From NCBI GenBank assembly GCA_000004695.1, contig CM000153.2:3232001-3296000 (forward strand): a stretch of DNA of 64,000 nucleotides, written 5' to 3'. Position 1 is the first letter of the stretch. Every line of letters starts with the position of its first letter. The translations under genes were made by a program, and so were the position numbers. Of this stretch, positions 44,241 to 63,759 are shown in pieces. The stretch comes from Dictyostelium discoideum. Lineage: Eukaryota. The notes below the pieces were generated by a model. It saw only the letters and a program-made list of their open reading frames with translations. It made no database searches and was not told where the DNA came from.

Positions 44241-45200
44241 ATAATAAAAAAAATAAAAATAAAATAAATAAAAAAAAGGTAATAACTATTTAATTAAATT
44301 ATTTATTCTGTCCTCTCATTTATCTTTTTTTTTAAAAAATAAAATTAGTAAACGAAAATAAAAAATCAATTTATTCCCTATTTGTTCATCAATATATATT
44401 TATATAAAATTTATTCCCTACTTGTTCTCCAAAATAAAAAAACAATTACAAAAAATGAATAATTAAATTCCTAAAATTTTTGGTTGAATATTCGAGTTTT
44501 ACGATTTCCCGAGGATTTAATATTAAAAAAAAAAAACAATTCATGACCAGCCCTAATCATAAAAAAACCACTAAAACATGCAAAGATTGGAAAAAAAAAA
44601 AAATAAAAATAAAAAAAAAAAACAAAATTAAAATAAATAAATAAAAGACACTTTCATTATAATTATAATTTTATTTTATTTTTTTTTATTTTGTTTTTTA
44701 ATTTTAATTTTTAGATATTGATAAAAACACAAAAGAAAAAAAAAAAAAATATTTTCGTTTTTATTTTCTTTTATTTTTTTTTTTAGTATTATTTAAAAAA
44801 AAAAAAAAAAATAATTTGTTTTATTTTTTTAATTTTTTTTTTTATTTTTGTTTTTTTTTTTCATTTTTTATTTATTTTTTTTTATTCACTATCTATTATG
44901 AATAGCAGAAATTATTCGATTGAAACCTCTTCAAATAAAATAATATACTTTTTTTTATTTTTTTTTTATTTAATTATTTTTTTTTTTAATTTCAAAAAAT
45001 AAAATATCCTCTCGTTGTTCTTCAAAATAAAAAATAAAATATAAAAAAAATAAATAAAAAAAATAATAATAATAAATAAAAAAATAAAAACTTTATTTAA
45101 TTTTATTTAATTTTTTTTTTTTTTTTTTTTTTCAACCAAAAACTAAATTTGTTTTTTATATTAAGACTGACTTAAATTGAGATTATTTTTATGGAAATAA

Positions 45201-45828
45201 TTATTCAGTTGGATAAATTTCAAAATATTCAATGGCATACTTATGATGAATGATTTATTTTTAAATTAGTACAACTTTTTTTAATCAATGTAAAAATAGT
45301 GAATAATATAATTATTATAACTTACTTTTCTAAGTTCTTCACGTGTAATACATTTGTCATCATCAGAATCCACATCTTCAAACATTGAGTTGGCCAAGAC
45401 TTTAGCTTGAGCTTCATTTGAACCACAAGTAACGAAAAATTGTCTGGCCTCATCCCAAGTAATTTTATTATCTTTATTTGAATCAGCCTATAAAATTTTA
45501 TTTATTTTTTTATTTTTAAAAATATTAAATTTCAATTACTATGTTTTTATGGGAAAGATTAATATTTATATATTTAATATATATATATTACATTAAAAAT
45601 AGTATCAACGAATTTTTTTAAACAATCTTCAGCTTTAATAATATAATCTACAAGTAATGCAGCTTTAACTTCATTAACCGAAAGTTTTCCATCTTTGTCA
45701 TGATCAAATAGTTCAAATAATGAATTGGTTGCCAAAGTTGGGTTTGGGTATTTGCATTTCTTGTACATGTCATTAATTTCTTTCTTTGAAAATTGGTTAT
45801 CACCATTTTTATCAAATGATTTAATCAT
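45201..45828 (-). CDS. EF-hand calcium-binding protein, calmodulin-like. Exons 45828..45592, 45487..45326, 45239..45201.
   Basis: The EF loops are [36 protein letters not shown] and [14 protein letters not shown]. Donors are AAT|GTAATA and AAA|GTAAGT. Acceptors are ttttatag and catcataag. Exon lengths 237 and 162 are in frame. The short last exon, [12 protein letters not shown], is the least certain part. Confidence 0.55.
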
Positions 45829-46322
45829 TTCATTCTTTAATTTAAAAATATAAAATAAATTTTTTTTTTTTTTTTTTTTTTTTTTAAACGGTTCTTATAT
45901 TTTTAAGAACCCACACCAAAAATAAAAAATATTATAATTCCCATTTTTTTTTTTTTTATTTAAATTATTTTTTCCAAATTATATTCATTTTCTAATTTTT
46001 TACCCATTTAAAACAGTTTTCAAATAAGGTAAGAGTGTTTAAACTTTTTTTTTTTTTTATTTTTTTTTTTTTTATTTTTTTTATTTCCTTATATTGATTT
46101 TGTTTTTTTAAATTTAATTATTATTTTTTTTACAAATTGATTTTTTTTATTATTTTATTTATAATTATGTTGAATTTATGATTTTATATAATTTTATAAT
46201 AACAATCTTAACTTCAACACTTTAAATCTAAGCACAAAACCCAAAGTTAGAACTCCAGCTACCTAACAGTTATATATATATTAAAAAAAAAAATAATTAG
46301 AATTTAATTATTAATATAAATA

Positions 46323-46733
46323 TTATATAGATATATTATATTTTTTGATCAAAAAAAAAATAATAATAATAGTAATAATAATAATAATAATAAAATATAT
46401 GATACATACTAAAATCTCTTTTGAACTTATTACTCTTAAAAATACAGATACTAAATATTGAACTCTATTTGAATTTTCTAAATTCTCTTCCACTATTGGT
46501 TTAAATCCTTTGATTTTAAATGCTAATAGTCTACCATCAAAATTTGGTTGTGCAACTGATGATTCCAATACAATATAAGGTATGTAAAATATTGTTGGCT
46601 CATCATTTTTAGTTTCTTCACCATTATAACTAAAAATTTCAAAGTTATCAACACTGATTCCATAAATTCTCAAAAATGCAAGACTTACAAAGTTATCAAC
46701 ACTATTTGTCATTAAAACTGAACTCAGTTGCAA
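46323..46733 (-). CDS. Low-confidence hypothetical ORF. It has a possible GTATGT donor after ..SSKEIL and a short hydrophobic terminal exon around 46264..46199.
   Basis: The 136-codon ORF has a protein-like middle (PTIFYIPYIVLESSVAQPNFDGRLLAFKIKGFKPIVEENLENSNRVQYLVSVFLRV). Its first 35 codons are read across two copies of the 23-bp tandem motif (SVDNFVSL / ISVDNFEIF). The true start is therefore doubtful. Confidence 0.25.
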   Translation of the reverse strand: MQLSSVLMTNSVDNFVSLAFLRIYGISVDNFEIFSYNGEETKNDEPTIFYIPYIVLESSVAQPNFDGRLLAFKIKGFKPIVEENLENSNRVQYLVSVFLRVISSKEILVCIIYFIIIIIITIIIIFFLIKKYNISI

Positions 46734-46908
46734 ATTTCATTTAACCAAAAACATACAAAGTTATCAACACTATTTGTCATTAAAACTGTACTGAGTTTGT
46801 TTCAAATTTCAATTTACAAAAGACATACAAAGTTATCAACACTATTTGCCCAATTTGTAAATTTAAGGGAAAGGGACACACAAAGTTATCAACACTATTT
46901 GTCCTTTG
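46686..46908. repeat. Four tandem copies, with a period of about 53-72 bp, of the conserved 23-bp motif ACAAAGTTATCAACACTATTTG(T/C)C. Its reverse complement, GTTGATAACTT, contains a GATA-type core TGATAA.
   Basis: Motif starts are at 46688, 46756, 46828 and 46881. Copies 1 and 2 share an about 60-bp extended unit (..cattaaaactg(a/t)act(c/g)agtt..). The array overlaps the 5' end of ORF 46323..46733 on the minus strand. Confidence 0.7.
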
Positions 46909-47051
46909 AAAAAAAAATTAATTTCTAAATTAAATAAAATAAAGTTAAAGTTTTCATTTAAAGTTTAAATTTTTTATTTTTTTATTTTTATTTACATTAT
47001 TTATTTATACAATTATATTTTTATTTTTATTTATACAATTTTATTTTTATT

Positions 47052-47333
47052 TTACAAGTAGATAGTTGAATATTCATCGTCATCGTAATAAAGGTCAGAA
47101 TCATATGTTGATTCAACACTTGACAAACTATTTATAGAATCTGATAGAGATTGTATTGTTGTTTTAAATGATAAATTATCCTTTCTTAATAATTCCATTT
47201 CTAATTTTAATTTTTTAATTTCTTGAAAAATTTTATCCTCTTGTTTTTCATTATTTTCTTTCATTGAATCAATTTCTTTATTAATAGAATGGAAATCATT
47301 TTTTAAAGATGTGATTACTTCTTTTAATGACAT
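47052..47333 (-). CDS. Possible small coiled-coil protein of 93 aa. Hypothetical.
   Basis: The ORF from ATG 47333 encodes MSLKEVITSLKNDFHSINKEIDSMKENNEKQEDKIFQEIKKLKLEMELLRKDNLSFKTTIQSLSDSINSLSSVESTYDSDLYYDDDEYSTIYL*. This is a heptad-like, charged and non-repetitive composition. It is flanked by (AAT)n and (ATTT)n repeats. There is no homology call. Confidence 0.3.
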   Translation of the reverse strand: MSLKEVITSLKNDFHSINKEIDSMKENNEKQEDKIFQEIKKLKLEMELLRKDNLSFKTTIQSLSDSINSLSSVESTYDSDLYYDDDEYSTIYL

Positions 47334-47355
47334 TATTATTATTATTATAATTATA

Positions 47356-47454
<99 letters not shown>

Positions 47455-47502
47455 GTATAATTTTTTTTATTTATTTATTTTTATTTATTTATTTATTTTT
47501 TT

Positions 47503-47533
<31 letters not shown>

Positions 47534-47816
47534 CAAATTTTAAAATAATAATACAACATGTAACTTTTTTAAGAGTTATTTTTATTTTACAAAATTATTG
47601 AAAAAAAAAAAAAAAACCAACAAAAAAAAAAATAAGAAAAAAAAATAAAATAATAATAAAATGAAATCACTGAATTGTTTCAAATTATTTTTAAAAAAAA
47701 CCCCTACGGTTTTTATTATAATCATTTTGATCAAAATTTTTTTTTTTTTTTTTTTTTTGGAAGTAAAAAACAATAATAATACAACAGAATTGATTTAAAA
47801 TAATCTCTTTTTAAAT

Positions 47817-49308
47817 TTAAAATTTATCAAGATTTTTAATTCTGCCACCCATTTGAATATCAACAGTGGAACCTTGAGGTCTTAATTCAATGTTATTTGT
47901 ATTTTTTTTTGAATTTCCATTCTTCTTCTTTTTAATTAAAACAATGGCAACAACAATAATTGCAATTAGTGCAAGACCACCTAGAATTGGACCAATGATA
48001 ACACCAATATTTGTTTTCTTTTTATTTTCAGAACCACAATCATCGCCATCATAATCTTCAACACATTGGCATTGACCAACTGTAGTATTACATAAACCAC
48101 CATTAAAACATGAAACTGAACAACTAACACCACTACAATCTATACCTTCATAACCTTGAGTGCATGAACATTCACCAACTGTTGTATTACATGAACCACC
48201 ATTTAAACATTGTGGAACTGTACAATCCTTTGTACCACAATTATCACCATAAAAGTCATTAATACATTGACATTGACCAACTGTTGTATTACATGAACCA
48301 CCATTTAAACATGAAACTGAACAACCAATACCACTACAATCTATACCTTCATAACCTTGAGTGCATGAACATTCACCAACTGTAGTATTACATGAACCAC
48401 CATTTAAACATTGTGGAACTGTACAATCCTTTGTATCACAATCATCACCATAAAAGCCATTTATGCATGAACATTCACCAACTGTTGTATTACATGAACC
48501 ACCATTTAAACATGAAACTGAACAACTAATACCACTGCAATCTACACCTTCATAACCTTGAGGACATGAACATTCACCAACTGTAGTATTACATGAACCA
48601 CTATTTAAACATGAAGCTGAACAACTAATACCACTGCAATCCGTACCTTCATAACCTTGAGCGCACGAACATTCACCAACTGTTGTATTACATGAACCAC
48701 CATTTAAACATTGTGGAACTGTACAATCTTTTAATTCACAATAATCACCATAATGATCATTTATACATTGGCAACCAGTGAGTGGATTACAAGTACCCCC
48801 ATTTAAACATTTTGTATCACAATTTGCATTTGGTTGACCAATGAATTTAATTGATTGTACTTGATTACCATATTTCATTAATATAGTTCTATTAAATAGC
48901 TGAGGTGACAATGAAACTGTTATTTTTGGTAAAACATCATTTGCAATTGATTTACTCTCATCACCAAATAATATTAATTCAATTCTAACTCTTGTATTAT
49001 TATTAAATGTTATTGAATATATTGAACTATCGAAACTAGGATCAATAATAAATTGATCTTCATTTGCTGGATTTTCAATTGTTAATGTAACAATTCTAAT
49101 TGCGCATTGTCCAACTTCTGAATTAATATTATTTTCAAATAATTTATAAATTGAGTTTGACATTGGATTTGGTTGAAATAATTTACTAATTATTGAAATT
49201 GAACCAATCGAAGTTTGACCATATATTGTATAAATATCTAAATATGAACCTGTTACTAATATAGATGCTGTCTGATAGAATAGAATTATTTAAAAGTTAA
49301 TAATAATG

Positions 49309-49391
<83 letters not shown>

Positions 49392-50948
49392 TGATTTAAT
49401 ATAATATTACTTACAATATCATCAATACCATCAGAGTTATAATCACCAATATCAATAGCCGCAGCATAGCCATTAATTGACATTTTTGAACAATCACCAA
49501 CTTGATCTTTTAAATAAATTGGATTTGAAGCATAATTTTTATTATTACCATACAAAATGGTGAATGGGATGTCAGTGTTACCACTGAATAAAAAATCTGC
49601 AAATCCATCATTATTTATATCCCCCAATCTAGGAGAAAAAGCCCAGCTATAGATGTTGCCAACAACTGCTATAACCAAACCATCCGATGGATTTAGATTT
49701 ATACTTAATGTTGTTGTTGGTGGATATTCTGTTTTACCCAAACCAAAAAAGCTATATAGTCACCCCCCGAAGTAAGTCTTGTAAGAATCTAAAATTATTT
49801 AATAAAATGTAAAAATAAGTATAATAACAATAAAGAATAATAAAGAATAAGAATAATCAAAAAATAATAAAGAATAAATTACACCAAAATCATTTAGTCC
49901 ATCATTATTAAAATCTCCAAAAGCATTTGGATGAACATTATTATTTGTTGTGCAACCTAAAAAGCTGAAACTGGTACCTTTGACACCATCATAAACTGGG
50001 ATATATGGTGAGGTAAAAGGGCCTCTACTACCATAAATAATATCGATTGCTATCTGTCCCCTATTTATCATTATATCACCAATCCCATCATTATTCATAT
50101 CATAAGGATAAGCCGCATATGAATTGAAATTATTAATTAAAAAACCATTACTCCCATTTAATGTTGAAGGGTCAAATTCAAACTGTGAATTAACTTGAAA
50201 TTTACCACCGTTTATACCAAATATCATATATGAAATTGGTGTTCCTGAAGTTGCATAAGTTCCTATACTTGCAGAGACCTAAAAAAAAAAAAAAAAAAAA
50301 AATATGTGTTAATACCCATGTGAATACCCCTTTTAAAAACAAAATAAAAAAATAAAAAAAATCTGTACCTACAAATAAATCTTTAATTGAGTCACCATTG
50401 AAATCAATGATTGATCTTACAAACCCAAATGCAATATTAGAGGACGAAACGTGAGAAATATAGAAACCATTATTACCATTCACTGTCGAAAAAGTAGAAG
50501 GTGATATAATTTGATCAGTACCATAGATAACACAAAGTTTTCCTGGTATAATATGTAAAAAAAGAGCAATATCGTCAAACCCATCATTATTTATATCACC
50601 AACAGCTATATTATTCATTCGAACAGTAGCATTTAAAAAAATAAAACCATTTGAACCGTTGATCTTTGATATGTCTGTTTGAAAATTAAAATTACTTGCT
50701 AATGGCCCATAAAATACATATAGTCCTTCTGAATTTATAGCATATATCAAATCATCATTACCATCACCGTTCAAGTCTCCATGTGCAATTGAAATTAAAC
50801 TTCTGCCTTCTGTTATTAAAAACCCATTTATTGAATTAATTTGAGAAAATGATGTTGGAAAAATTGAAATTACAACATTGAAATTATAATTTAAAATATA
50901 AAATAAAAATAAAATATAAAAAAAGTTTACCTTATATTTTTCTGTCAT
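47817..50948 (-). CDS. Type I membrane adhesion-like protein with an N-terminal FG-GAP (integrin-alpha-like beta-propeller) repeat region, 8 tandem tenascin-type EGF-like repeats, a TM helix and a short cytoplasmic tail. About 4 exons: 50948..50373, 50278..~49885, ~49751..49415, 49271..47817.
   Basis: FG-GAP/Ca-binding loops recur: GDLNGDGNDDLIYA, GDINNDGFDDIAL, DFNGDSIKDLFVG, DMNNDGIGDIMI, GDFNNDGLNDFG, GDINNDGFADFLF and DYNSDGIDDI. These are followed by 8 copies of CxNGGSCNTTVGECSCxQGYEGxDCSGISCSxSCLN, then IGVIIGPILGGLALIAIIVVAIVLI (TM) and KKKKNGNSKKN... Donors are TTT|GTAGGT and ATT|GTAAGT. Acceptors are tttttttttag and ctattctatcag. The exon 2/3 junction only fits in frame with the non-canonical G|GTGTAA donor and the ctatatag acceptor at 49751, so it is uncertain. 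Confidence 0.7.
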
Positions 50949-51530
50949 TTTTTGTTAAAAAGGTAACTTTTTTTTCTGATTTTGAATTTTATCGAAATGT
51001 ATTAAATGCTTTTTTTTTTTTTTTTTTTTAAAAAAAATAAGGTCCGTTTTCTATTTTTTACACAAACGACGGTTTTTTTTTTTTTTGGCGAAAAAGATAT
51101 TTTTAAAAAATAAAATCTTTTATTTTGATTGAATTTTAAAATAATCACATGATAATTTCTTTAAATTTTAATATTTAAAAAAAAAAAAAAAATAAAAAAA
51201 AACAAAACTTTTTAAAATAATCATTTTAATTTTAAAACAAAAAAAAAAAAATTATATATAACTTTTGAAAATAAAAAAATAATTTTTTTTTTAATAAAAC
51301 CAATTCAAAACATTATTTAAATTAAACCAAGATAAAAAATTTTTAAAATAGATTTCAAATTTTTATAAAATAATATCCAACAATTTTTGACATTCGATCG
51401 TTTGCCAGATTTTCAAATAATATTTTTTTTTTTTTTATTTTTTTTTTTTTATTTGTTTTCTAAAAAATTGGAAAATATCTTCATCCATAAAATTTGTTAT
51501 TTGATTAAATTTAATTACAACTTTATTTAT

Positions 51531-51911
51531 TTATTTACAAATTTTCTTTTTTAATTTTTTTTTTTTTTTTTTTTTATTGATAAAACCTTTACATTTCTTT
51601 AAATAAAAACCATCATCTTCTTCAATTTCTTCAGCCCATTCAAAGATTGCCTCTTCAGAGATAACATCATTTTCATCACAAAAATCTTGAATTTTAAAGA
51701 TAAGATCTACCATACTATCTTCTCTTGAGAATTTAACCAACAATAAAACTGGTAAAATACTTGTTAAACAATCTAAACCATCTCTATCATAAGCGAATTT
51801 CAAACCATTGATTTCTAATTGAATATTCTCTAAAGGTAATTTCTCTATAATACCACGTCTAATTGTATCACCAACTTCACGATGAAATTTAACTGAATCA
51901 GGTTCAATTGG

Positions 51912-52007
<96 letters not shown>

Positions 52008-52217
52008 GTTGTTGTTGTTATTGTTATTGTTACAATTTGAACCTGTCATACAAATTACTTGAACACCTGGAAGATCATGCCATCTTGATGATTGAATATA
52101 TTCTTTAATTTGTGATGCATGTGCACAACAAAATACAAATATTTGTTGTACTCCTGATGCTGCTAAAAATTCTAATGTATAATCTAATAATGGTATATTA
52201 ACTAATGGTAATAATGT
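51531..52217 (-). CDS. eIF2B-epsilon-like mini-ORF. An N-terminal nucleotidyl-transferase-fold fragment of about 55 aa is joined through a roughly 40-residue poly-Asn tract directly to a C-terminal W2 (eIF4G/eIF5/eIF2Be) domain. The catalytic core and LbH regions are absent. It may be a pseudogene, an internally deleted paralogue, or a collapsed assembly.
   Basis: From the acceptor tttaaatag at 52219/18 the open frame reads [62 protein letters not shown]-(N)[49 protein letters not shown]..[24 protein letters not shown]. Both ends align to human EIF2B5 ([40 protein letters not shown]..SKW and [43 protein letters not shown]). No upstream coding exon could be found in the 190 bp before the divergent 52415 gene. 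Confidence 0.45.
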
Positions 52218-52315
52218 CTATTTAAAAAAAAAAAATAATATATTAGCATTTTAATCTTGAATTTCACCCCTCTAATTGGGTTGAGTGTTTTTGGATTTTA
52301 ATTTGAATTCCCGAG

Positions 52316-52385
<70 letters not shown>

Positions 52386-52414
52386 GCACACACAAACACT
52401 CTCATAAATGGAGA

Positions 52415-53075
52415 ATGATTCAAAACGCATTTTTATATTTAAAGATAATCATTCTGATAGTAATAACAAATAATGTAAACTCACAATTAATTGATATTTA
52501 TTTCAGTAATAGTTATGATGATTTAAATGGTAATGGCACCATATCAAACCCATATCAAAATTTATGTTTACTTAATCAAATTTTAAATTCAAATAATAAT
52601 AATAATAATAATAACGATAATATAAATAGTTCAATAATAATAATAAATATTGATTATGGTGATTACAATTTAAATTGTTCATCATTTTTAATAATAAATA
52701 ACTTTAATAATATTTCATTCATACCTTATAAATCAAATAATAATAATAATAATAATGAAATTGTAAATTTAAATAATATAACCACATTAAAGATACTTAA
52801 TTCAAATTTAGGATTTGATGGGTTAATAACAATAATAACGAATCAAATAGAGATTTCATATAGTAGAATCATATTCAACAATGGATCAAAACTTTATTTC
52901 AACATAGAAAGATATGAACATTCAACACACTTTCAATGCTCAAATATTACATTTTCAAATTCAACATTTCTTTTAAAAAGAGATGAAAACTACCTTGTAT
53001 CAGAATCTAGTTCATTCGAATTTTTAGATTCATCTTTAGAAAATATATCTTTAATATTTAATAATAACCTATATT

Positions 53076-53153
<78 letters not shown>

Positions 53154-56100
53154 GTATTGGTAATAGTAGTAGAATTAGTAGTGGTAGTAGTAGTAGTAGT
53201 TATTTTTTATCAATGTTTAATTGTAATGCAACATTGATTTATTTCAGGATGAATGGATTTGGAAATGTTTTAATTAATAATTCATTATTAAATGATATAT
53301 CAATTAGAATAGAAGGTAGTTTTATAGTTAATATTAATAGTTCAGATATTTATGCAACTTCATTAGATCCACTTTTCATGGTGGCGAATATGGATATAGA
53401 AAGATCACTTTTAAATATAATAAATTCAAATATTTACTATTTAAATGATTCTGAGTATCCTTTAGCAATTATAGTTAAAAATAGTTTACTAAATATAAGT
53501 GGTTGTAATATAAATGGAAACTTTAAAAGAATTTATCCTCAAGCATTAATAAATGTTGCTGGTACTCCTTCATCATCATCATCAAATGATAGTAGTAGTG
53601 GTAGTAGTAGTAGTAGTAGTTGTATAGATAATGAAGCTTTATTAATTTTAGAGAATTCAAAGATTTCAAATTTTAATTCACCAAATAAATTTATTTTTTC
53701 AATTTGTTCAACTATTTTTATAAATAATATTACATTTTATTCAAATTCATACTCAACATTTTTATATATTAATAGTAGTAGTATTGTTAATTTAGATAAT
53801 ATTATAATGAAATGTGATGATATGAATAGATTTGAATATTTATTTTTAGCACTACCATCATCGTCATCATCATCATCATCAAATATAACAATTAATAATG
53901 TTTATATGAGTTGTGTTGGTATGTTTGAATTTGAAAATTGTAGAATTGAAATTTCAAATTTTAGTTTAGAATCATTTTCAAAACCTTCAACTATTAGGCT
54001 AAGTCATTCAAGTGAATTAATAATTAGGAATGGTGTTTTTATTTCAAGTATATTCAAAATTAAATCTTTTATGTTTTATTTAGAGCAGAATAGTAGGTTG
54101 GTCATTATAAATTGTCAATTTATAGATAGCACTACCAATATTATTTTCTCAAGAAATTCAGAAACAGTTTTACAATATTCAAATTTTTCAAATATAATAC
54201 CATATGGTGGTGGCAGTGGTGGTGATACATTTAATTCAAATTCAATTTTCTACTTTTCAAAAAGTTTATTACAAATTGAAAATTGTAATTTTAATCAAAC
54301 TCAAACTTTATCATCCCTATTTTATATGGAATTTTCAGAGAATGTAATTATAAAATCAACAAGATTTGAAAGAGTTGGTGATACTATTTTAAAAAGTTAC
54401 TTTTCAAACAACAATATTATCATTGATGATATTTATGTAGTGAATTGTAGTACTACACAGAGTGAGTTATTCTTTTTAACGTTTAATGAAAATGTTGTAA
54501 TTGGAAATTCAACTTTTAAAAATAATCATGGTATTGGTTATACTTTATTTACTATTAATGGTTGTTTACATTTTGAAATTAGTAAAACAATGATTTCAGA
54601 TAACTCTTTCTCATCAATTTTTAAAGAATCAAATTCAAATGCCATTCTACTAAATTCAATAATCTCAAATGGTAATACAGTTGATGATTTTTATAAATCT
54701 TCAAATTGTTCTTCCCTTTCAATTGATACTTTTAATTTTACAAATAATTATGTTAATTCAATATTCACAATAAATAAAATCACATCCAAAATTCAACTTT
54801 CAAATATTATAATTACAAATAATTATTTCACTAAAATAATTACAAAATTTAATCAATCTATAGTTGAAATTAATAATTTAACATTTATAGACAACATATT
54901 AATTGCACCTCAAAAATATGATTTGGATGGTGGTGGTGGTAGTAGTGGAGGTGGTGGTGGTGGTGGTGGATTATTCTTTGAAAATTGTCAAGTTATTTCT
55001 AAAGGTTTACAAATTTTAAATAATGAAATTTCAGTTAATTTAATTAATTTAAATGATTCTATATTATTAATTTCAGATGGTTTATTTGAAAATAATCAAA
55101 TTTCATCAAATTTTATTCATTCTGATTTTTCAACTGTTGCTTTATTTAATACAAAGGTATTGCATAATCAAGGTGGTGATGGTGGTGGTTCAACTTTATT
55201 TGTTATTCATAATTCAAATATTAATATAAGTGATTGTGAATTCTCTTTTAATAATCTTTATAAAAATGGTATGGGTTCAATTATTAATTTTGATAAATAT
55301 TTAAATAAATTTACTTATTTTCAAATTGAAAATACTTTATTTTCTTTCAATATTGCTAAATTTGGTCAATTATACTTTTCAGGTTATCCAAATGATCAAG
55401 ATGCATTTACAAATAGTAAAAATACATTTTCAAATAATACATTAATTTCAAATCATGCATCTTCACAAGGTGGTGCTATCTTTACAGAAAATTTCATTTT
55501 CTCTTTAAATATTTCAAATATTTTAAATTCAAATCATTTCGATAATAATACTTCATTATGTGGTGATAATTTCTCTTCAAGTATGTATTATTGTTTTTAT
55601 TTTTATTTTTATTTTTATTTTTAATAATTCTAATTTTTTTTTATTTTTTTTTATTAGGTTTAAAAGAAATTATTTTCATAGAAACTAATGGTACATTTTT
55701 AGTAAATGGAGTTGGAACTATTATCAATTATAATGCAGTGGATTTTTATAATAATGTATTCACCACATTATCTTCACCAATTCAAATTAGTATTACAAGT
55801 TTATCAAATAATGAAACACTGGTATTCACTGAAATGATTATTGGTGGTAAAGGAAGTTTTTTACATACTTTTATAGGACCACTTTATGAAAGATTTAAAA
55901 TTGAATTAAATTCCATACCATACTATTCAAATGTTTATTTAACACTTGGTGGATGTTTACCATTTCAATATATGAATAATTTAACATGTGAATATTGTCC
56001 AATAGGTTCATCATATAGTAATTCAATAGGTCAATGTTTTAAATGTAATCCTAATGCAGTGACATGTGTTGGTTCATTTGTAAATGTAAATACTGGATAT

Positions 56101-57240
56101 TATATGATCGATAATGAAATCTCAATGGTTGAACGATGTGCAAACGATATGTGTCTCTCAAATAATCAATGTCAATTTAAATATAGTTCAGGAGATTTAT
56201 GTTTCAGTTGTTTAGATCCAGACTCATCAACACCAACATTCATAGCAGCTAAACATGGAATTAATTGTTGTTCCCAATTTAAAGTATGGTTAATTGTACC
56301 ATTATTATTATTATATTTAGTTTCAGCATTAGTTCTCTCAATAATCAAATTAAATTTATTCACAACAATAATTGGACCAATAATAGTATTCCTTCAAATT
56401 AATTCAGTAGTTTTCTTTTCTTATAATGGTATTTACATTTTAGCATTCTTTAGAGTATCATTAGATATTTTAGATGGAATTTGTATTTTCAAAGGATTAA
56501 ATCATGGAGATAAAACATTAATTATATTATTAATTATAATAATAATGTTTTTAATTTCTTCAAGTGATTGGCTTCCTTTATGGTTATTTAGAAAATTAAA
56601 TTCAAATTTTAAATTATACAATTATTTAAAAAGAAATTTAAAAAAGAATAGAAATTTAAAGAAATCATCATCAACAACTCAACTTAATTATTTTATTAGA
56701 TCAAGATGGCAATTATTTCAAATCTTTATTATTCCATTAATATTCAATTCATTTACATTGATAATACCAAAGAAAATTAAAGATCAAACATTATTATTAG
56801 TAGATTTTTCAATTTTATTTGGATCATGGCAGAGTATAATTCAAATTTTCATTTCAGTTTTAGTAATAATATCAGCAATGGTATTTTTAATATTAAAATA
56901 TCAATTTTACAGCAAGGGTAAACTAAAGTTGTGGAGTTTCATTATAATTTTAAGATCAGTTTTATTTTCAATTCTATCAATTACATCAATTTTTAGCGAT
57001 AATGAATTTTATATGCCATCGATTATTCTAATTCAAATAGTCTATTCAAGTATTTACTTGTATTTGAAACCTTTAAAAGAAAAAATTGATAATAGTAATT
57101 TTATAAATTTAATTCAAATAATTATCTTTCTTTTCGCAGATTCAAGATTATTCCAACCAATTTCTCCCCATTATCTTGGCTTAATTTTAACTATTTTAAT
57201 TATTATTTTAAATTTATTTATAATAATAAAAACCTTTTAA
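52415..57240 (+). CDS. Giant membrane protein, copy 1, about 1580 aa. It has a signal peptide, about 900 aa of parallel beta-helix (PbH1 / chlamydial Pmp-like) repeats, a Gly-rich hinge, a Cys-rich module and about 10 TM helices. Exons 52415..55580 and 55658..57240.
   Basis: MIQNAFLYLKIIILIVITNNVNSQ is a signal peptide. The body has repeated N-x-x-x-x-x-S/N-x-I-x-F beta-helix rungs (..NVYMSCVGMFEFENCRIEISNFSLES.., ..VIINCQFIDSTTNIIFSRNSETVLQYSNFSNI..). The hinge is GGGGSSGGGGGGGG. The Cys-rich module is CEYCPIGSSYSNSIGQCFKCNPNAVTCVGS..CANDMCLSNNQCQFKYSSGDLCFSCLDPDSS..INCC. A multi-TM block follows (WLIVPLLLLYLVSALVLSII.. and more). The intron at 55581..55657 has a TCAA|GTATGT donor and a ttattag acceptor, with phase 1 consistent. 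Confidence 0.8.
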
Positions 57241-57260
57241 ATTGTATTTGGCGGTTGCAG

Positions 57261-57296
<36 letters not shown>

Positions 57297-57381
57297 CAAA
57301 ATCTTTTTTTACTTTTTTTTTTTTTTTAATAAAAATCTTATTTTAAAAATAGTACTTTTAAAACAAATAAAAAGAAAGAAA

Positions 57382-57413
<32 letters not shown>

Positions 57414-57562
57414 TACGTGATCGCTGATTGGCTGGGCAAAAAATTAAAAAAAATCAAAATAAAAATGAAAATAAAAATGAAAATTCTCAAAAAAAAAAAA
57501 AAAAAAAATTGAAAACATAAACATTTTTATTCAAACCAAATTATTAGTTACATAAATGGAGA

Positions 57563-58256
57563 ATGATACATAATTTATATTTAAAGATAATCATTCTTTT
57601 ATTAATAATAAATAATAATGTAAACTCACAAATAATTGATATTTATTTCAGTAATAGTTATGGTGATTTAAATGGTAATGGCACCATATCAAACCCATAT
57701 CAAAATTTATGTTTACTTAATCAAATTTTAAATTCAAATAATAATAATAATAACGATAATAACGATAATAAAAATAATTCAATAATAATAATAAATATTG
57801 ATTATGGTGATTACAATTTAAATTGTTCATCATTTTTAATAATAAATAACTTTAATAATATTTCATTCATACCTTATAATTCAAATAATAATAATAATAA
57901 TAATAATGGAATTGTAAATTTAAATAATTTAACCACATTAAAGATACTTAATTCAAATGTTAAATTCGATGGGTTAATTAAAATCACAATAACAATTATA
58001 GAAAATGAAACGGAAATTATAAATAGTGATATATTATTGAATAATGGGGTAACTCTTTATTTTATCAAAAATTACCAACTAACCAACAGTGAATTTCAAT
58101 GTTCAAGTATTAAATTTTCAAATTCAAAATTTATTTCAAATTGGTCACAAAATGATGTATCTATTTATTTTAATTCAGATTCCAGCTTATTTGAATTTCA
58201 AAATTCTTTAGTAGAAAATGTATTTTTAAAATTTAATAATATAAAAAATTGTAGTA

Positions 58257-58287
<31 letters not shown>

Positions 58288-61200
58288 GAATGAAATTAAT
58301 TTTTTAACATTTAATAATAGTAATATCAAAGATTGTTATTTTGCAACTAGTGGTTTAAATTCAATTTTTAATAATTCTTTATTAGATGGTTTAAAAATGA
58401 ATATTGGAGCAAGTAGTATAGTAACAATTCTCAACTCTAAATTATATGCAAAACCAGATTCTATTTTAGGAACTTTTCTAATTACCAATGTTGATCAAAG
58501 TACAAAACCATCAGTTTTAAATATAGTTAATTCAAATATTTACCATTTACAAGATTCTCGTTATTCATTAATTATGCTATTTATAAATTCATTTGTAAAT
58601 ATTAGTGGTTGTACAATTGAAGGTAGGGAAACAATAGTTCAAACACCAATTGTATTAATTGGAATACCAAATAGTAGTGGTGGTGGTGGTAATAATAATA
58701 ATCAAGTGATACTAGTTTTAGAGAATTCAAAGATTTCAAATTTAATTTCACCAAAAGATTTTATCAATTCATTTAGTTCTACCGTTATTATAAATAATGT
58801 TCAATTTTATTCAAATTCATTTTCAACAATTATTTCATCAAGAGGGTCAACTTCTTTTAATCTTTATAATATCATTATTACATGTGATCAAAGGAATATA
58901 TTTACATCAATTATTAAAATGCCATCATCGGAAAATGATTTATATTCAAATTTGACATCTTTTATAGATTTTAATAATGTTTATATGGGTTGTGTTGGTG
59001 GATTTGAATTTCAAAATTCAAAAATCCAAATTTCAAATTTTAGATTAGAATCATCTTCAAAACCTTCAATATTTAGTTTAATTTTAAATAGTGAATTAAC
59101 AATTATTAATGCCACTTTTATTTCAAGTATATTTGATCAATCTCCTTCAATTTTTTATATTAATTCAAGTAAATTAACAGTTTTACAAAGTGAATTCAAA
59201 GATAGTACCAACTCTATTCTATCTTTATATGGTGGTTCAACAGCAACCTTTCAATCAACCAATTTTTCAAGTATAATAACCTATGAAAGAGTTCCAATTT
59301 TTAATAGTAGTTCAAGTTCATTATTTATTGAAAATTGTAGTTTTTTTGAAATTCAAACTTCAGTTTCATCATTATTCAATTGTTTTGATTGTGATAATTT
59401 AACTATAAAGAATTCAATATTTGAAAGAGTTGGTGATATCATTTTAGATTGTTTCAATACAAAACTAATAATTATTGATTCTATAAATGTTTCAAATTGT
59501 AGTTCACAAACAGGTTTATTCTATTTTTCAAATAATAGAAATGGTAGTAGTATTATCACAAATTCTTCATTTATAAATAATCATGGTATCGGTGTTACAC
59601 TATTTAATATATTTGAATCAAATTTTGAAATTAGTTCAACAGATTTAATAGATAACACATTTTTATCAATATTTGATGAATCATTTTCAAATGTAACAAT
59701 TGAACGCATTTACGTTACAGGTACAACTGGAATTTTTTATTCTGCTTTAAATTCAATATCGATTTTAGTTGATGGTTTAGATTTTAAAGATAATTATGTC
59801 ACCTCTGTATTTACTATTAATCAAGCTAATAAAATTGAATTTTCAAATATAGCAATTTATAAAAACTATTTCATAGATGGTGTAAATGTTATGATGATTA
59901 GTCTTTGTACATTGGAAATCAATAATTTTAATTTTATGGAAAATGTTTTAATTGCACCACCTAAATCAGAACAAACTAGTGGTGGCGGTAGTGGTGGTAG
60001 TGGTAGTGTTGGTGGAGGATTAATTTTTCAAAATTCTAATGTCATTTTCAATGATTTACAAATTTTAAAAAATGAAATTTCAGTTAATTTATTTAATTGT
60101 ATTAACAATACATTATTATCAATTACAGGTGGTTTATTTCAAAATAATAAAGTTTCATCAAGTTTTATTTTTTCTGAAATTTCAGTAATCAATTTAATTA
60201 GAACACATCTATTGCATAATCAAGGTGATAGTTCAACTTTATTAATGTTGTATGCTTCAAACATCAATGTGAATTATTGTGAATTCTCTTTTAATAATAT
60301 TTATCAAAATGGTAGTGGCTCAATATTAAATTTTAAAAGAAACTTGGAAACACACGAGTATTTAGGAAACTTTCAAATTGAAAATACTTTATTCTCTTTA
60401 AATATTGCTAAATTTGGTCAATTATACTTTTCAGGTTATCCAAATGATCAAGATGCATTTACAAATAGCAAAAATACATTTTCAAATAATACACTAATTT
60501 CAAATCATGCATCTTCACAAGGTGGTGCTATCTTTACAGAAAATTTCATTTTCTCTTTAAATATTTCAAATATTTTAAATTCAAATCATTTCGATAATAA
60601 TACTTCATTATGTGGTGATAATTTCTCTTCAAGTATGTATTATTATTATTTTATTTTTGTTCATTTTTTGGCCAATCTAACTTTTTTTTTATTTTTTTTA
60701 TTAGGTTTAAAAGAAATTATTTTCATAGAAACTAATGATACATTTTTAGTAAATGGAGTTGGAACTATTATCAATTATAACGCAGTGGATTTTTATAATA
60801 ATACATTAACAACATTATCTTCACCAATTCAAATTAGTATTACACGTTTATCAAATAATGAAATTCAAACTTATTCAGAAGCAATTTTAAGTGGTAAAGG
60901 AAGTTTTTTACATACTTTTATAGGACCACTTTATGAAAGATTTAAAATTGAATTGTATCTCAAACCATATTATTCAAATGTTTATTTAACACTTGGTAAA
61001 TGTTTACCATTTCAATATATGAATAATTTAACATGTGAATATTGTCCAATAGGTTCATCATATAGTAATTCAATAGGTCAATGTTTAAAATGTAATCCTA
61101 ATGCAGTGACATGTGTTGGTTCATTTGTAAATGTAAATACTGGATATTATATGATCGATAATGAAATTTCAATGGTTGAACGATGTGCAAACGATATGTG

Positions 61201-62374
61201 TCTTTCAAATAATCAATGTCAATTTAAATATAGTTCAGGAGATTTATGTTTCAGTTGTTTAGATCCAGACTCATCAACACCAACATTCATAGCAGCTAAA
61301 CATGGAATTAATTGCTGTTCCCAATTTAAAGAATGGTTAATTGTACCATTATTATTATTATATTTAGTTTCAGCATTAGTTCTCTCAATAATTAAATTAA
61401 ATTTATTCACAGAAACAACAATAATTGGACCAATAATAGTATTCCTTCAAATTAATTCAGTAGTTTTCTTTTCTTATAATGGTATTTACATTTTATCATT
61501 CTTTAGAGTATCATTAGATATTTTAGATGGAATTTGTATTTTCAAAGGATTAAATCATGGAAATAAAACATTAATTACACTATCAATAATAATAATAATG
61601 TTTTTAATTTCTTCAAGTGATTGGCTCCCTTTATGGTTATTTAGAAAATTAAATTCAAATTTTAAGTTATACAATTATTTAAAAAGAAATTTAAAAAAGT
61701 ATAGAAATTTAAAGAAATCATCAACAACTCAGTTTAATTACTTTATTAGATCAAGATGGCAATTATTTCAAATCTTTATTATACCATTAATATTCAATTC
61801 ATTTACATTGATAATACCAAAGAAAATTAAAGATCAAACATTATTATTAGTAGATTTTTCAATTTTATTTGGATCATGGCAGAGTATAATTCAAATTTTC
61901 ATTTCAGTTTTAATATTATCATTGGTAGTTTTAGTTATAATAATAAAACATTTCTATTACAGCAACAAAAAAAATCAATGGAATATTAATCTTAAGCAAA
62001 ATGGAAAGACATTATCTTTTAAAAGAATTTTATTAGTAGTTAAAACAATTTGTTTCATCTTTCTTTTAGGTTCATGGGATTTTATTATTATAAGATCATT
62101 TTTATTTTCAATTTTATCAATAGCTTTGATATTTAGCGATGGTAATTTATTTTTACCATCAATTATTTTAATACAAATCATTTATTCAATTATTCAATTT
62201 TTGTTGAATCCTTTCAAAAAAAAGGTTCATAATCTTATTAATTTAATCCAACTTATAATCTTTTTTTTTGCAGACTCAAGTTTATTCCACCCAATTACTC
62301 CTTTCGCTTTGGGATTAATGCTAACTATTTTAATTATTATTTCCCCTTTTTTTATAGCAATTGGAAATAAATAA
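57563..62374 (+). CDS. Giant beta-helix / multi-TM membrane protein, copy 2. It is a tandem paralogue of 52415..57240. Exons 57563..60632 and 60705..62374.
   Basis: It has the same architecture and a near-identical N-terminus (MIHNLYLKIIILLLIINNNVNSQIIDIYFSNSYGDLNGNGTISNPYQNLCLLNQILNSNNNNN). The equivalent intron is TCAA|GTATGT ... ttattag. In the ORF track it stays open because it lacks a stop, but the same donor and acceptor are conserved. The C-terminal TM block is about 98% identical to copy 1 at the nucleotide level over about 1.5 kb, while the central beta-helix region is diverged. Confidence 0.8.
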
Positions 62375-62413
62375 AAAAAAGTAATAAAAGAAATAAATAT
62401 TTTTTAAAAAGTT

Positions 62414-62475
<62 letters not shown>

Positions 62476-62536
62476 TTGGATGTTGCTTTTTTGCACATTT
62501 TTTAAATTTTTTTATCCCTTTGAATAAGCTAAGAGT

Positions 62537-63008
62537 TTATTTTATAAAACATAATTCACTAATTTCTAAATAATTTATATGGGTTTGATTTTGTTTTAAT
62601 CCTATTATATTAGCATCGCTATTTATATATTGATAAATTTTGCCTTGAAATTTTGGTTTTTCATGATAATGGCTTAAACAAGAATCAGTTTTAGGTTTTT
62701 TATAATCATAGAAATATAATTTTTCAAGTGATTTTGGAAGATTTGAAAAATCGATTTTATCTTTTTTAAATTTTAAATAAATATCTTTATAAGATAATTT
62801 TAGTTTTTTTAAAGTTTGTGGTAATTTATTTGTTTCTATTAAATCTTTAAATGTATTAAATGCTGTTTTTATTTCAAAAACATTTCTATCAGAATTTAAA
62901 AATGAAAGAGATGTTAATGATTTTGGTAAAAATAAAAGATCATTTTCAAAAGTCCATTGTATATTTAATTTAATTAAATTATCTGGAAATATTGATTTTA
63001 ATAATGAA

Positions 63009-63060
<52 letters not shown>

Positions 63061-63634
63061 TTTGAGATTTATATTGATTTAACTCATTTTTTAAAATGAA
63101 TCTATTAAAAATCAACAATGAAGATATGTAATAAAATGATTTATAATATTTAAAAAAATTTTCAACATAAATATTTAATTTAAATAATGATGGTGGAAAG
63201 AAGTTTATAATATTAATGTTTTTCTTTATCCAACAATAATTTGTTTGAATGATAAGAGTATGAAGTCCTTGGGGTAATGAATTTGAGCAGAATTTGAAAA
63301 TAATACCCCAACTTTTAATTTTAATTGCTGATATTTTTAATACTTTTAAACATTTTGGTAAATAATTTTTTTTTATTGTAAATTTGTCTCTTAAAATATT
63401 GTGAAAGTGAAGATATGTAATGTTTGTGTTATAAAAAAAATTAGAATTAAAATATCTTGATAATGGTGTAACTATTATTAGTTTCTCTAGTGATTTTGGA
63501 AATGAATTTTTTTTAATTATAACTGGTTGAATATCATAAATGTCTGGGGAACCAATTTCTAATTCTTTTAATTTTGGAGGAATAAAATTTTTTTTGAAAA
63601 TTGGGAAAAAACTACAACCAGTATTAAAACTCAA
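62537..63634 (-). CDS. Repeat protein with a periodic (L/F/I)P(K/Q)(S/T/C/G)L(K/T/E)xL(K/S/I)(F/L/I) motif. It is LRR/FNIP-like but lacks the FNQ core. Hypothetical.
   Basis: A 365-codon ORF from ATG 63634. It has recurring units LPKSLTSLSF, LPQTLKKLKL, LPKSLEKLYF, FPKSLEKLII, LPKCLKVLKI, LPQGLHTLII, FPPSLFKLNI, FPDNLIKLNI and IPPKLKELEI at about 22-28 aa spacing, plus a poly-N tract. Confidence 0.55.
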
Positions 63635-63759
63635 TTGAATTTTTTCGATTGTATTATTCTTTTTAAATATTTTTAATTTTCTATTTTTAAAATATTCTTT
63701 TTTTAAAAAAAAAAAAAAATATTAATAAAAATAAAAAACACCAAATAATTTATAAAAAT

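What the first reader, a model, noticed from the sequence alone, without database searches (positions are those of the whole stretch)
51531..52217. eIF2B-epsilon-like ORF lacking its middle 450 residues, with the N-terminal fragment joined by poly-Asn to the W2 domain
Both ends align convincingly to eIF2B-epsilon: [27 protein letters not shown] at the N-terminus and [15 protein letters not shown] (W2) at the C-terminus. They are fused in frame through an (AAT)n tract. The catalytic body and the left-handed beta-helix are missing. No first exon could be found in the 190 bp before the divergent neighbour. Three explanations are possible. It could be a processed or deleted pseudogene copy of eif2b5. 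It could be a genuine W2-only regulatory mini-protein, since the ORF track starts it at M of MTGSNC. Or the assembly may have collapsed across the AAT repeat and lost the real middle of the essential eif2b5 gene.
Basis: partly seen in the sequence, partly recalled or inferred. Interest (0 to 1): 0.65.

Follow-up and report, generated by a model that had tools for sequence, protein, structure and literature searches.

The report
Decayed partial copy of eif2b5
This is a broken, internally deleted leftover copy of the essential translation-factor gene eif2b5, sitting in a strain-specific 7.8-kb block on Dictyostelium discoideum chromosome 4; the intact gene lies elsewhere on that chromosome, so it is an ordinary gene relic, not a mis-assembly or a new regulator.

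Summary
On the minus strand, 52217-51531 reads in one frame as eIF2B-epsilon residues 48-109, then 40 Asn, then a W2 remnant.

The window is D. discoideum AX4 chromosome 4. Intact eif2b5 (Q54RF3, 707 aa) lies elsewhere on that chromosome, so this is a second, decayed copy.

Retained exon DNA is about 99.5% identical to eif2b5 of other strains. The copy keeps intron 1, so it is not a retrocopy. It lacks exon 1 and any in-frame ATG before Met104. It has lost residues 110-522, then 33, 17 and 3 residues inside W2. The acidic C-terminal tail is replaced by read-through into A-rich 3'UTR.

The copy is the right end of a 7.8-kb block (44508-52315). The block is bounded by CCCGAG repeats and also holds a decayed copy of eif2b5's EF-hand neighbour gene. 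It is absent from two other D. discoideum strains and present in an independent AX4-like assembly, which has the identical AAT tract. That rules out assembly collapse.

The W2 match falls below Pfam's threshold, and the remnant is not predicted to fold, unlike the parent's W2 domain.

Verdict: an unprocessed, slippage-eroded pseudogene. A functional mini-protein is unlikely but was not tested by expression data.

The parts
44508..52315 (.). A 7.8-kb block that is present in the AX4 lineage and absent from two other D. discoideum strains. The eif2b5 relic is its right-hand end.
   Evidence: Strains ACTFIW (L002) and ACTFIR (L004) are colinear with the window on both sides but skip 44513-52302. 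L003, an AX4-like assembly, contains the right-hand part of the block, window 47536 onward, where that locus begins.
44508..44513 (+). Left CCCGAG copy at the block boundary. It is a microhomology shared by the target site and the donor locus.
   Evidence: The empty site reads ...GATTTCCCGAG|TTTTGGG.... The donor reads ...ACTATCCCGAG|GATTTAAT... at L001 14771-14776.
52310..52315 (+). Right CCCGAG copy at the block boundary.
   Evidence: The window reads ...TTTGAATTCCCGAG|AATTTTT. GAATTC comes from eif2b5 intron 1 and CCGAG from the target site.
52218..52300 (-). Relic of eif2b5 intron 1, including its 3' end ...AAATAG. The 5' splice site and exon 1 are missing.
   Evidence: It aligns to L001 10144-10232 and to the L005 intron. 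Parent exon 1 (L001 10001-10141) has no counterpart in the window.
52050..52217 (-). Relic of the start of exon 2, residues Thr48-Cys103 of eIF2B-epsilon. It is in frame but has no start codon, so it cannot be translated as it stands.
   Evidence: Translation. Together with codons 104-109, it is 187 bp with 1 synonymous difference from L001 and L005.
51531..52049 (-). The longest ATG-initiated ORF, 172 codons plus stop: MTGSNC, then Asn40, then the W2 remnant, then a Lys-rich tail. An annotation pipeline calls a 180-aa variant with a 72-bp intron in L003.
51912..52032 (-). AAC/AAT tract of 40 Asn codons that replaces eif2b5 residues 110-522. Those residues are the rest of the NTP-transferase-like domain, the left-handed beta-helix and the linker.
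   Evidence: Tandem Repeats Finder. The DNA alignment breaks at L001 10419 and resumes near 11712-11738. The tract is identical in L003.
51742..51911 (-). W2 remnant, first part (Pro523-Leu579). It is 100% identical in DNA to L001 and L005.
51742..51744 (-). Junction of a 99-bp deletion (residues 580-612) at an ATT microhomology.
51665..51677 (-). Junction of a 51-bp deletion (residues 637-653) inside the direct repeat ATGAAAATGA.
51616..51633 (-). Junction of a 9-bp deletion. One unit of the tandem GAAGAAGAT repeat is lost (3 residues).
51534..51578 (-). Lys-rich tail [15 protein letters not shown]. An approximately 85-bp deletion removed the last 25 codons (the acidic tail) and the stop codon. 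The frame now runs into A-rich 3'UTR.
   Evidence: Coding homology ends after GGTTTTATC at 51579. The following sequence aligns loosely with the parent 3'UTR.
44507..46345 (-). Copy of the DNA downstream of eif2b5. It holds the EF-hand gene without its exon 1 (about 45150-45840) and the spacer that ends about 190 bp before pyruvate kinase.
   Evidence: blastn to L001 14777-12550 and to L005. Alignment.

Best explanation
The ORF is a non-functional, unprocessed partial duplicate (a gene relic) of eif2b5 (DDB_G0283163) on D. discoideum AX4 chromosome 4.

Shown. A stretch of about 4.6 kb was copied as DNA, in inverted orientation, into the spacer between a MIX23 gene and a beta-helix-repeat gene. 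The copied stretch runs from inside eif2b5 intron 1, through the EF-hand neighbour gene, to about 190 bp upstream of pyruvate kinase. The joints sit at short microhomologies: TCCCGAG on the left and TTC(C) on the right.

Shown. The copy never had exon 1 or a promoter of its own. It is missing five further pieces. Residues 110-522 are replaced by an expanded AAT tract. Deletions of 99, 51 and 9 bp lie at direct repeats. A deletion of about 85 bp removed the acidic tail and the stop codon.

Inferred. The deletions arose by replication slippage or microhomology-mediated deletion, either during the copying event or afterwards. The frame stays open because this organism's indels are strongly biased to multiples of three and its base-substitution rate is extremely low. 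Selection is not needed to explain it.
For: Organism and locus. A window ORF is exactly AX4 protein DDB_G0285477, on the 5,450,249-bp record. The window is 99.7% identical to L003.

Intact parent elsewhere. AX4 Q54RF3 (707 aa) and its orthologues in four other strains are intact. They sit in a different gene neighbourhood: isochorismatase, eif2b5, EF-hand, pyruvate kinase. The same assembly that confirms the relic also carries the full-length protein on its 5,576,411-bp chromosome contig.

DNA homology. It is colinear from intron 1 to the pyruvate-kinase upstream spacer. Only 1-3 copy-specific substitutions occur in 523 retained exon sites.

Junctions and strain polymorphism.

Assembly. An independent assembly has the identical AAT tract.

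Loss of function. There is no exon 1 and no in-frame ATG before Met104. The NTP-transferase and LbH domains are gone. W2 scores 21.9 bits against 84.5 for the parent, with a cut-off of 30. AlphaFold gives pLDDT 34-53 for the W2 remnant and predicts spurious strands there. With an equally shallow alignment, the parent W2 gets mostly 67-83 and is all-helical. The deletions remove helix 595-608 and the start of 610-616, helix 637-652, and half of helix 677-697.

Neighbouring copy. The co-duplicated EF-hand copy has also lost its first exon.

Mutation spectrum. In D. discoideum the indel rate is 2x the substitution rate, deletions are 4.5x insertions, and a high proportion of indels are multiples of three (PMC7466956).
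Against: The frame is open for 228 codons in 78% A+T DNA.

All four internal deletions are multiples of three.

The few substitutions are 2 synonymous to 1 non-synonymous.

One annotation pipeline calls a 180-aa gene here.

No expression data could be consulted.

AX4's own eif2b5 DNA could not be fetched, so divergence was measured against other strains.

The direction of the presence/absence difference is not settled. It could be an insertion in the AX4 lineage or a loss in the other strains.

The origin of the 5.2-kb middle segment of the block is unknown.
Confidence: 0.86

Rival explanations
1. The 172-aa ORF (Met104 onward: poly-Asn plus W2 remnant) is a young, AX4-lineage-specific expressed protein. 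It would act as a W2-type decoy for eIF2-beta, eIF2B or eIF5 partners and so tune translation initiation.
For: The ORF is open and all deletions are in frame. Acidic/aromatic box 1 ([17 protein letters not shown]) is retained. A gene is predicted here in L003. The neighbouring gene is divergent, about 365 bp from the ATG, so a shared promoter region is conceivable.
Against: W2 scores below the Pfam cut-off. At least two of nine helices and half of the last one are missing. The acidic C-terminal tail is also gone; from general knowledge of W2 domains, that region carries the second acidic/aromatic box. The remnant is not predicted to fold, whereas the parent W2 is. The block is absent from two conspecific strains, so it is dispensable. 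The bias toward three-base indels and the low substitution rate explain the open frame without selection. With only 1-3 substitutions there is no power to detect constraint.
Confidence: 0.06
2. Assembly artefact: the real eif2b5 sits here and its middle was collapsed across the AAT repeat.
For: Long pure trinucleotide tracts are classic sites of assembly collapse.
Against: A separately deposited chromosome-level assembly (GCA_054883475.1) is base-for-base identical over 51300-52500, apart from a 20-nt difference in a poly(T) run. Full-length eif2b5 is present elsewhere in that same assembly and in AX4. Collapse cannot explain the missing exon 1, the three extra deletions inside W2 or the different flanking genes.
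Confidence: 0.01
3. Processed (retrotransposed) pseudogene derived from an eif2b5 mRNA.
For: An A-rich run follows the truncated coding region. Short direct repeats flank the block.
Against: Intron 1 sequence is retained. The downstream EF-hand gene and the intergenic spacer were copied in the same order as at the parent locus. The direct repeats flank the whole 7.8-kb block, not the fragment. The A-rich run aligns with the parent's genomic 3'UTR.
Confidence: 0.01
4. This is the same relic with a different history. The 7.8-kb block would be ancestral in D. discoideum and precisely lost in strains ACTFIR and ACTFIW by recombination between the flanking CCCGAG repeats, rather than gained in the AX4 lineage. 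Under this reading the many deletions would reflect greater age.
For: Direct repeats at both ends would regenerate an exact empty site. In the EF-hand region the window copy keeps the outgroup state at 19 sites where L001 and L005 share a derived base. It therefore branched off before those two alleles split.
Against: There are only 1-3 copy-specific substitutions in 523 eif2b5 sites and 14 derived changes in 658 EF-hand sites. The block is a copy of another locus with donor-target microhomology at the joint, which is the signature of an insertion. Two independent precise losses, or one shared loss, would be needed.
Confidence: 0.2

Closest known systems
eif2b5 (DDB_G0283163; Q54RF3), the catalytic epsilon subunit of the eIF2B guanine-nucleotide exchange factor
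   Same: Retained exon segments are about 99.5% identical in DNA and differ by one residue (Ser618Arg). Intron 1 and the downstream neighbour gene are shared.
   Different: The relic lacks exon 1, residues 110-522, three stretches of W2 and the acidic tail. It sits in a different gene neighbourhood and is absent from other strains.
Unprocessed (duplicated) pseudogenes and gene relics produced by segmental duplication
   Same: It is a DNA-level copy that keeps intron and flanking sequence. It is truncated at the 5' end and is decaying by deletion. Its presence varies among strains.
   Different: It has unusually many in-frame deletions for so few substitutions. This fits the organism's indel-rich, substitution-poor mutation spectrum.
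Microhomology-mediated templated insertions (MMBIR/FoSTeS-type or MMEJ-mediated capture). This comparison rests on general knowledge.
   Same: The joints lie at 3-7 bp microhomologies between donor and target. The internal skips lie at 3-10 bp direct repeats. A foreign 5.2-kb segment is embedded in the copy.
   Different: No experimental evidence bears on the pathway. The internal deletions could equally be later slippage events.
W2-only regulators such as eIF5-mimic protein (5MP/BZW). This comparison is from memory and is a lead only.
   Same: The ORF would encode little more than a W2-like region with acidic/aromatic box 1.
   Different: The W2 is sub-threshold, missing helices and the second box, and is not predicted to fold. 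There is no evidence of expression.

Membership tests
Functional eIF2B-epsilon | Complete N-terminal NTP-transferase-like domain (PF00483) | tested here: not met
   Only residues 48-109 remain. Pfam gives no PF00483 hit for the relic, while the parent P0182 hits at 36-168.
Functional eIF2B-epsilon | Left-handed beta-helix domain (PF25084 LbH_EIF2B, hexapeptide repeats) | tested here: not met
   Absent, replaced by Asn40. The parent scores 118.8 bits.
Functional eIF2B-epsilon | C-terminal catalytic W2 domain above the family threshold, with both acidic/aromatic boxes | tested here: not met
   21.9 bits against a 30-bit cut-off; the parent scores 84.5. Residues 580-612, 637-653, 670-672 and 687-711 are missing.
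Functional eIF2B-epsilon | Initiation codon and first exon | tested here: not met
   Homology starts inside intron 1, TAG closes the frame at 52218-52220, and there is no in-frame ATG before Met104.
W2-domain proteins (eIF5, eIF4G, 5MP/BZW, eIF2B-epsilon C-terminal domain) | Foldable all-helical HEAT-like W2 domain | tested here: not met
   The AlphaFold model of the relic has pLDDT 34-53 with predicted strands in the W2 part. The parent, with the same alignment depth, has mostly pLDDT 67-83 and nine helices. The alignments were shallow (8-9 sequences), so this is supportive only.
Unprocessed (duplicated) pseudogene | Intact parent gene elsewhere in the same genome | tested here: met
   AX4 Q54RF3/EAL65820.1 has the same sequence as KAM9943487.1, which lies on the 5,576,411-bp contig that also carries the relic.
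Unprocessed (duplicated) pseudogene | Copy retains intron and flanking genomic sequence of the parent | tested here: met
   Intron 1 relic at 52218-52300. The EF-hand gene and spacer are copied at 44507-46345.
Unprocessed (duplicated) pseudogene | Disabling lesions in the coding sequence | tested here: met
   Loss of exon 1 and five deletions that together remove about 490 of the protein's 711 residues (110-522, 580-612, 637-653, 670-672, 687-711).
Unprocessed (duplicated) pseudogene | No functional expression | not testable with these tools
   No transcriptome or proteome data are available here.
Processed pseudogene (retrocopy) | Intronless copy limited to the mRNA, with a poly(A) tail and flanking target-site duplication | tested here: not met
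   The intron is retained, the copy extends 2.4 kb past the parent's 3' end, and the repeats flank the whole 7.8-kb block.

The most novel reading that the evidence does not exclude
The relic is transcribed from the region it shares with the divergent neighbouring gene and translated from Met104. The product would be a poly-Asn plus partial-W2 protein that still binds eIF2-beta or eIF5 through acidic/aromatic box 1. This would give the AX4/NC4 laboratory lineage a strain-specific modulator of the integrated stress response. It would be a case of a new gene born from a decaying duplicate of an essential translation factor.
Probability: 0.04. Interest if true: 0.6.

Novelty: new member of a known kind. 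Interest (0 to 1): 0.14.

Why it matters
Mainly as housekeeping. The locus should be treated as an eif2b5 pseudogene rather than a protein-coding gene. One recent annotation calls a 180-aa protein here.

The essential eif2b5 is safely intact elsewhere, so the reference assembly is not in doubt at this site.

Reads, probes or guide RNAs designed against eif2b5 exon 2 or the W2 region will cross-match this relic in AX4-lineage strains but not in other strains.

As a side benefit, the locus is a clean natural example of this organism's mutation spectrum. It shows many deletions in multiples of three, AAT expansion and almost no base substitutions. It is also an example of a microhomology-joined segmental insertion that differs between strains.

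Tried and rejected
- A first homology search with the fused ORF returned only four distant fragments and missed the D. discoideum parent. The exhaustive HMMER search with the W2 part, followed by a second search with the Acytostelium hit, recovered the parent.
- Exact look-ups of the 172-aa ORF, the FNIP neighbour and AX4's own eIF2B-epsilon found no contigs. The 180-aa gene model could not be looked up. Neither ORF version is in the protein collection.
- I looked for a first exon or a cryptic splice. The only GT...AG pair upstream gives a 50-nt 'intron' whose upstream frame hits a stop within 10 codons and has no ATG. The ATG inside the intron relic runs into TAG (read from the sequence).
- A lariat or RNA-intermediate origin was considered, because homology starts close to the 5' splice site. 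It was rejected. The break lies 0-20 bp inside the intron at a TTC microhomology, and the copy extends into the next gene.
- I tested whether the relic is 'too conserved' compared with the co-duplicated EF-hand copy, which could mean selection or gene conversion. After polarising with outgroups, the discrepancy largely dissolves. The EF-hand gene evolves very fast in the functional lineages, while eif2b5 exons barely change even between species.
- The D. citrinum locus fetched for polarity turned out to be a later member of the beta-helix gene array, so it was uninformative.
- Two literature searches found nothing about this relic.

Full report
**Observation.** The minus strand of window 52217-51531 is one open frame of 228 codons. 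It begins immediately after a TAG and reads [62 protein letters not shown]. Forty Asn codons follow (AAC/AAT tract 51912-52032). Then comes [48 protein letters not shown]...[28 protein letters not shown] and a Lys-rich tail. Against PDB sequences, the two ends match human eIF2B-epsilon residues 67-121 and 545-612 with E = 7.6e-20. The first ATG in the frame is Met of MTGSNC at 52049, giving the 172-aa ORF.

**Where the window comes from.** The composition (about 22% G+C), the FNIP-repeat gene and the poly-Asn genes point to Dictyostelium. An ORF at 47052-47333 is exactly AX4 protein DDB_G0285477 (UPF0521 protein A, Q54N65), on a 5,450,249-bp record. Window 47536-64000 is 99.7% identical to an independently deposited chromosome-level D. 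discoideum assembly, L003 (GCA_054883475.1, CM142510.1). The differences are almost all homopolymer lengths. The window is AX4-lineage chromosome 4.

**The parent gene.** An exhaustive profile search with the W2 part found the Acytostelium eIF2B-epsilon. A second search from that protein found the Dictyostelium orthologues. D. discoideum has a full-length gene. AX4's is Q54RF3/EAL65820.1, 707 aa. The same protein is annotated on the 5,576,411-bp contig that also carries L003. Variants of 705-711 aa occur in four other strains. In four of those genomes the gene lies between an isochorismatase gene and an EF-hand gene followed by pyruvate kinase. That neighbourhood is quite different from the one in the window.

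**What is left of the gene here.** At protein level the retained segments are identical to D. discoideum eIF2B-epsilon except Ser618Arg. DNA comparison with the parent loci of strains ACTFIR (L001) and ACTFIW (L005) gives the following picture.

- Homology starts inside intron 1. The window keeps about 83 bp of it, including the ...AAATAG acceptor. It resembles the L005 allele more than the L001 allele.
- Exon 1 (47 codons) has no counterpart.
- Exon 2 runs to Cys109.
- Residues 110-522 are replaced by the AAC/AAT tract.
- Pro523-Leu579 are 100% identical in DNA.
- A 99-bp deletion (residues 580-612) lies at an ATT microhomology.
- A 51-bp deletion (637-653) lies inside the repeat ATGAAAATGA.
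- One 9-bp unit of a tandem GAAGAAGAT is lost.
- After ...GGTTTTATC (51579), about 85 bp holding the last 25 codons and the stop are gone. The frame therefore reads into A-rich 3'UTR as [15 protein letters not shown].

Across 523 retained exon sites aligned in six genomes, the window differs from L001 and L005 at four positions. One of these is the ancestral state, two are ambiguous, and one (the Ser-to-Arg change) is clearly derived.

**The relic is one end of a strain-specific block.** Strains ACTFIW (L002) and ACTFIR (L004) are colinear with the window on both sides at about 93-95% identity, but they jump from window 44513 to 52302. The extra 7.8 kb is present in L003, from window 47536 onward, where that locus begins. 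In L003 the relic is called as a 180-aa gene with a 72-bp intron.

- The left 1.8 kb of the block (44507-46345) is homologous to the DNA downstream of the parent gene (L001 14777-12550). It is colinear with the parent locus, in the same minus-strand orientation as the relic. This DNA is the EF-hand gene and the spacer that ends about 190 bp before pyruvate kinase. That EF-hand copy lacks its first exon.
- The middle 5.2 kb (about 46345-51500) carries UPF0521A and a 912-aa FG-GAP/EGF gene. It has no counterpart at the parent locus in five other genomes.
- The block is bounded by CCCGAG at 44508-44513 and 52310-52315. The empty site has one copy (GATTTCCCGAG|TTTTGGG). The donor also reads TCCCGAG exactly at the left breakpoint (L001 14771-14776). 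The right joint shares TTC(C).

These are microhomology joints between a donor and a target, not a transposon-type duplication.

**Assembly collapse is excluded.** L003 is identical to the window at every base of 51300-52500, including the whole AAT tract. The only difference is a poly(T) run of 47 instead of 67 nt in the intergenic spacer. Collapse would also not explain the loss of exon 1, the three extra deletions in W2, the new flanks or the presence of an intact gene elsewhere.

**Can it still do anything?** The 56 codons upstream of Met104 have no start codon and no upstream exon. The block edge is about 85 bp away, followed by the A/T homopolymer and the neighbour's ATG at 52415.

- The NTP-transferase-like and beta-helix domains are gone.
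- The W2 match drops from 84.5 bits in the parent to 21.9 bits, below Pfam's 30-bit threshold.
- The control model of the full-length protein was built from an 8-sequence alignment. Its W2 region is nine helices with pLDDT mostly 67-83.
- The relic, modelled with the same depth, has pLDDT 34-53 in that region and even predicted strands.
- The deletions remove helix 595-608 and the start of 610-616, helix 637-652, and half of helix 677-697 with the acidic tail.
- The block is absent from two conspecific strains, so it is dispensable.

**Is the open frame evidence of selection?** Four internal deletions that are all multiples of three, and an open frame in A+T-rich DNA, look suggestive. However, mutation-accumulation data for D. 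discoideum show the following (PMC7466956).

- The base-substitution rate is 2.47e-11 per site per generation.
- The indel rate is twice as high as the substitution rate.
- Deletions are 4.5 times as frequent as insertions.
- A high proportion of indels are multiples of three.

The deletions here lie at direct repeats built from the same codons, or in a tandem 9-mer, or in a trinucleotide tract. That also favours in-frame outcomes. With one to three substitutions there is no power for a dN/dS test.

I also checked whether the relic is anomalously conserved compared with the co-duplicated EF-hand copy, which has 35 window-specific differences in 641 sites. After polarising with D. cf. discoideum, 19 of 34 differences are derived in the other strains and only 14 in the window. 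eif2b5 exons differ by only 0.8% even between D. discoideum and D. cf. discoideum, whereas the EF-hand region differs by 16-19%. The contrast reflects a fast-evolving EF-hand gene, not protection of the relic.

**Most likely history.** Shown: this is a DNA-level copy of eif2b5 (from intron 1 onward), the EF-hand gene and the spacer, joined into a new site at microhomologies. It is eroded by repeat-flanked deletions and AAT expansion, and it varies in presence among strains. Inferred: it is an insertion in the AX4 lineage by microhomology-mediated repair or template switching. The internal skips and the 5.2-kb middle segment arose either in that same event or later by slippage and a second insertion. 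The alternative is that the block is older and was precisely lost in the other strains through the CCCGAG repeats. That cannot be excluded with four genomes.

**Comparison with known things and verdict.** The locus fails every defining feature of a functional eIF2B-epsilon or of a W2-domain protein. It meets the testable criteria of an unprocessed pseudogene. It is not a retrocopy. This is an ordinary kind of object, and I found no paper mentioning it. Whether dictyBase lists it as a pseudogene or gene could not be checked here. Interest is low. The practical value is correct annotation and awareness of cross-matching with eif2b5 in AX4-derived strains.

**Limits.**
- AX4's own eif2b5 DNA could not be retrieved.
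- No expression data were available.
- The structure models rest on shallow alignments.
- Whether L003 is fully independent of the reference is inferred only from its separate accession, its different contig length and its homopolymer differences.

Noticed in passing
window 46345-51500: The middle of the strain-specific block holds two apparently intact genes, UPF0521 protein A (DDB_G0285477, 47052-47333, minus strand) and a 912-aa FG-GAP/EGF-repeat membrane protein (47817-50948, minus strand). They are embedded between the two decayed halves of the eif2b5/EF-hand duplicate. No counterpart exists at the donor locus in five other genomes, and the source of this segment is unknown.
   Followed up: partly
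window 45150-45840 (minus strand): This is a copy of the EF-hand gene that lies downstream of eif2b5. Exons 2-5 are retained without frameshifts, about 93% identical to other strains. Exon 1 is missing, and an 84-codon ORF starts at an internal ATG (45828). It is probably a second relic, but it could be a shortened paralogue.
   Followed up: partly
L001 13275-14026, L005 13251-13999, L007 9112-9888, L009 10285-11031; L008: The EF-hand gene between eif2b5 and pyruvate kinase evolves very fast. It differs by 3.8% between two D. discoideum strains and by 16-19% from D. cf. discoideum. The adjacent eif2b5 exons differ by 0% and 0.8%. The EF-hand gene is absent from this position in D. citrinum.
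   Followed up: partly
window 52318-52384: A 67-nt poly(dT) run lies in the divergent intergenic spacer. It is 47 nt in the independent assembly L003 and is interrupted or shorter in strains ACTFIW and ACTFIR.
   Followed up: yes
window 62264-62414: All eight base substitutions between the window and L003 over 16.4 kb cluster in 150 bp, at the 3' end of the second beta-helix-repeat gene and just beyond it, next to a poly(A) run. This could be a local assembly or consensus error in one of the two records, or a small gene conversion among the tandem paralogues.
   Followed up: no
window 52415-57240 and 57563-62374 (plus strand); L003 17722-22568: A tandem array of genes encodes roughly 1,560-1,600-aa Asn/Ser-rich beta-helix-type repeat proteins. 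The D. citrinum relative hits PF13229 Beta_helix. The paralogues share 75-96% identical stretches, so the array is prone to conversion.
   Followed up: no
window versus L002/L004 (whole syntenic region 34155-64000): Named D. discoideum strains differ from the AX4 lineage by about 3% substitutions, and by 5-10% when indels are counted, even across genes. That is high for a single species.
   Followed up: no
tool behaviour: Word-index protein searches and exact look-ups did not return AX4-lineage proteins that must exist. Examples are the parent eIF2B-epsilon and the AX4 and ACTFIT orthologues of the beta-helix gene. Absence of a hit for this genome should not be read as absence of annotation.
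   Followed up: partly
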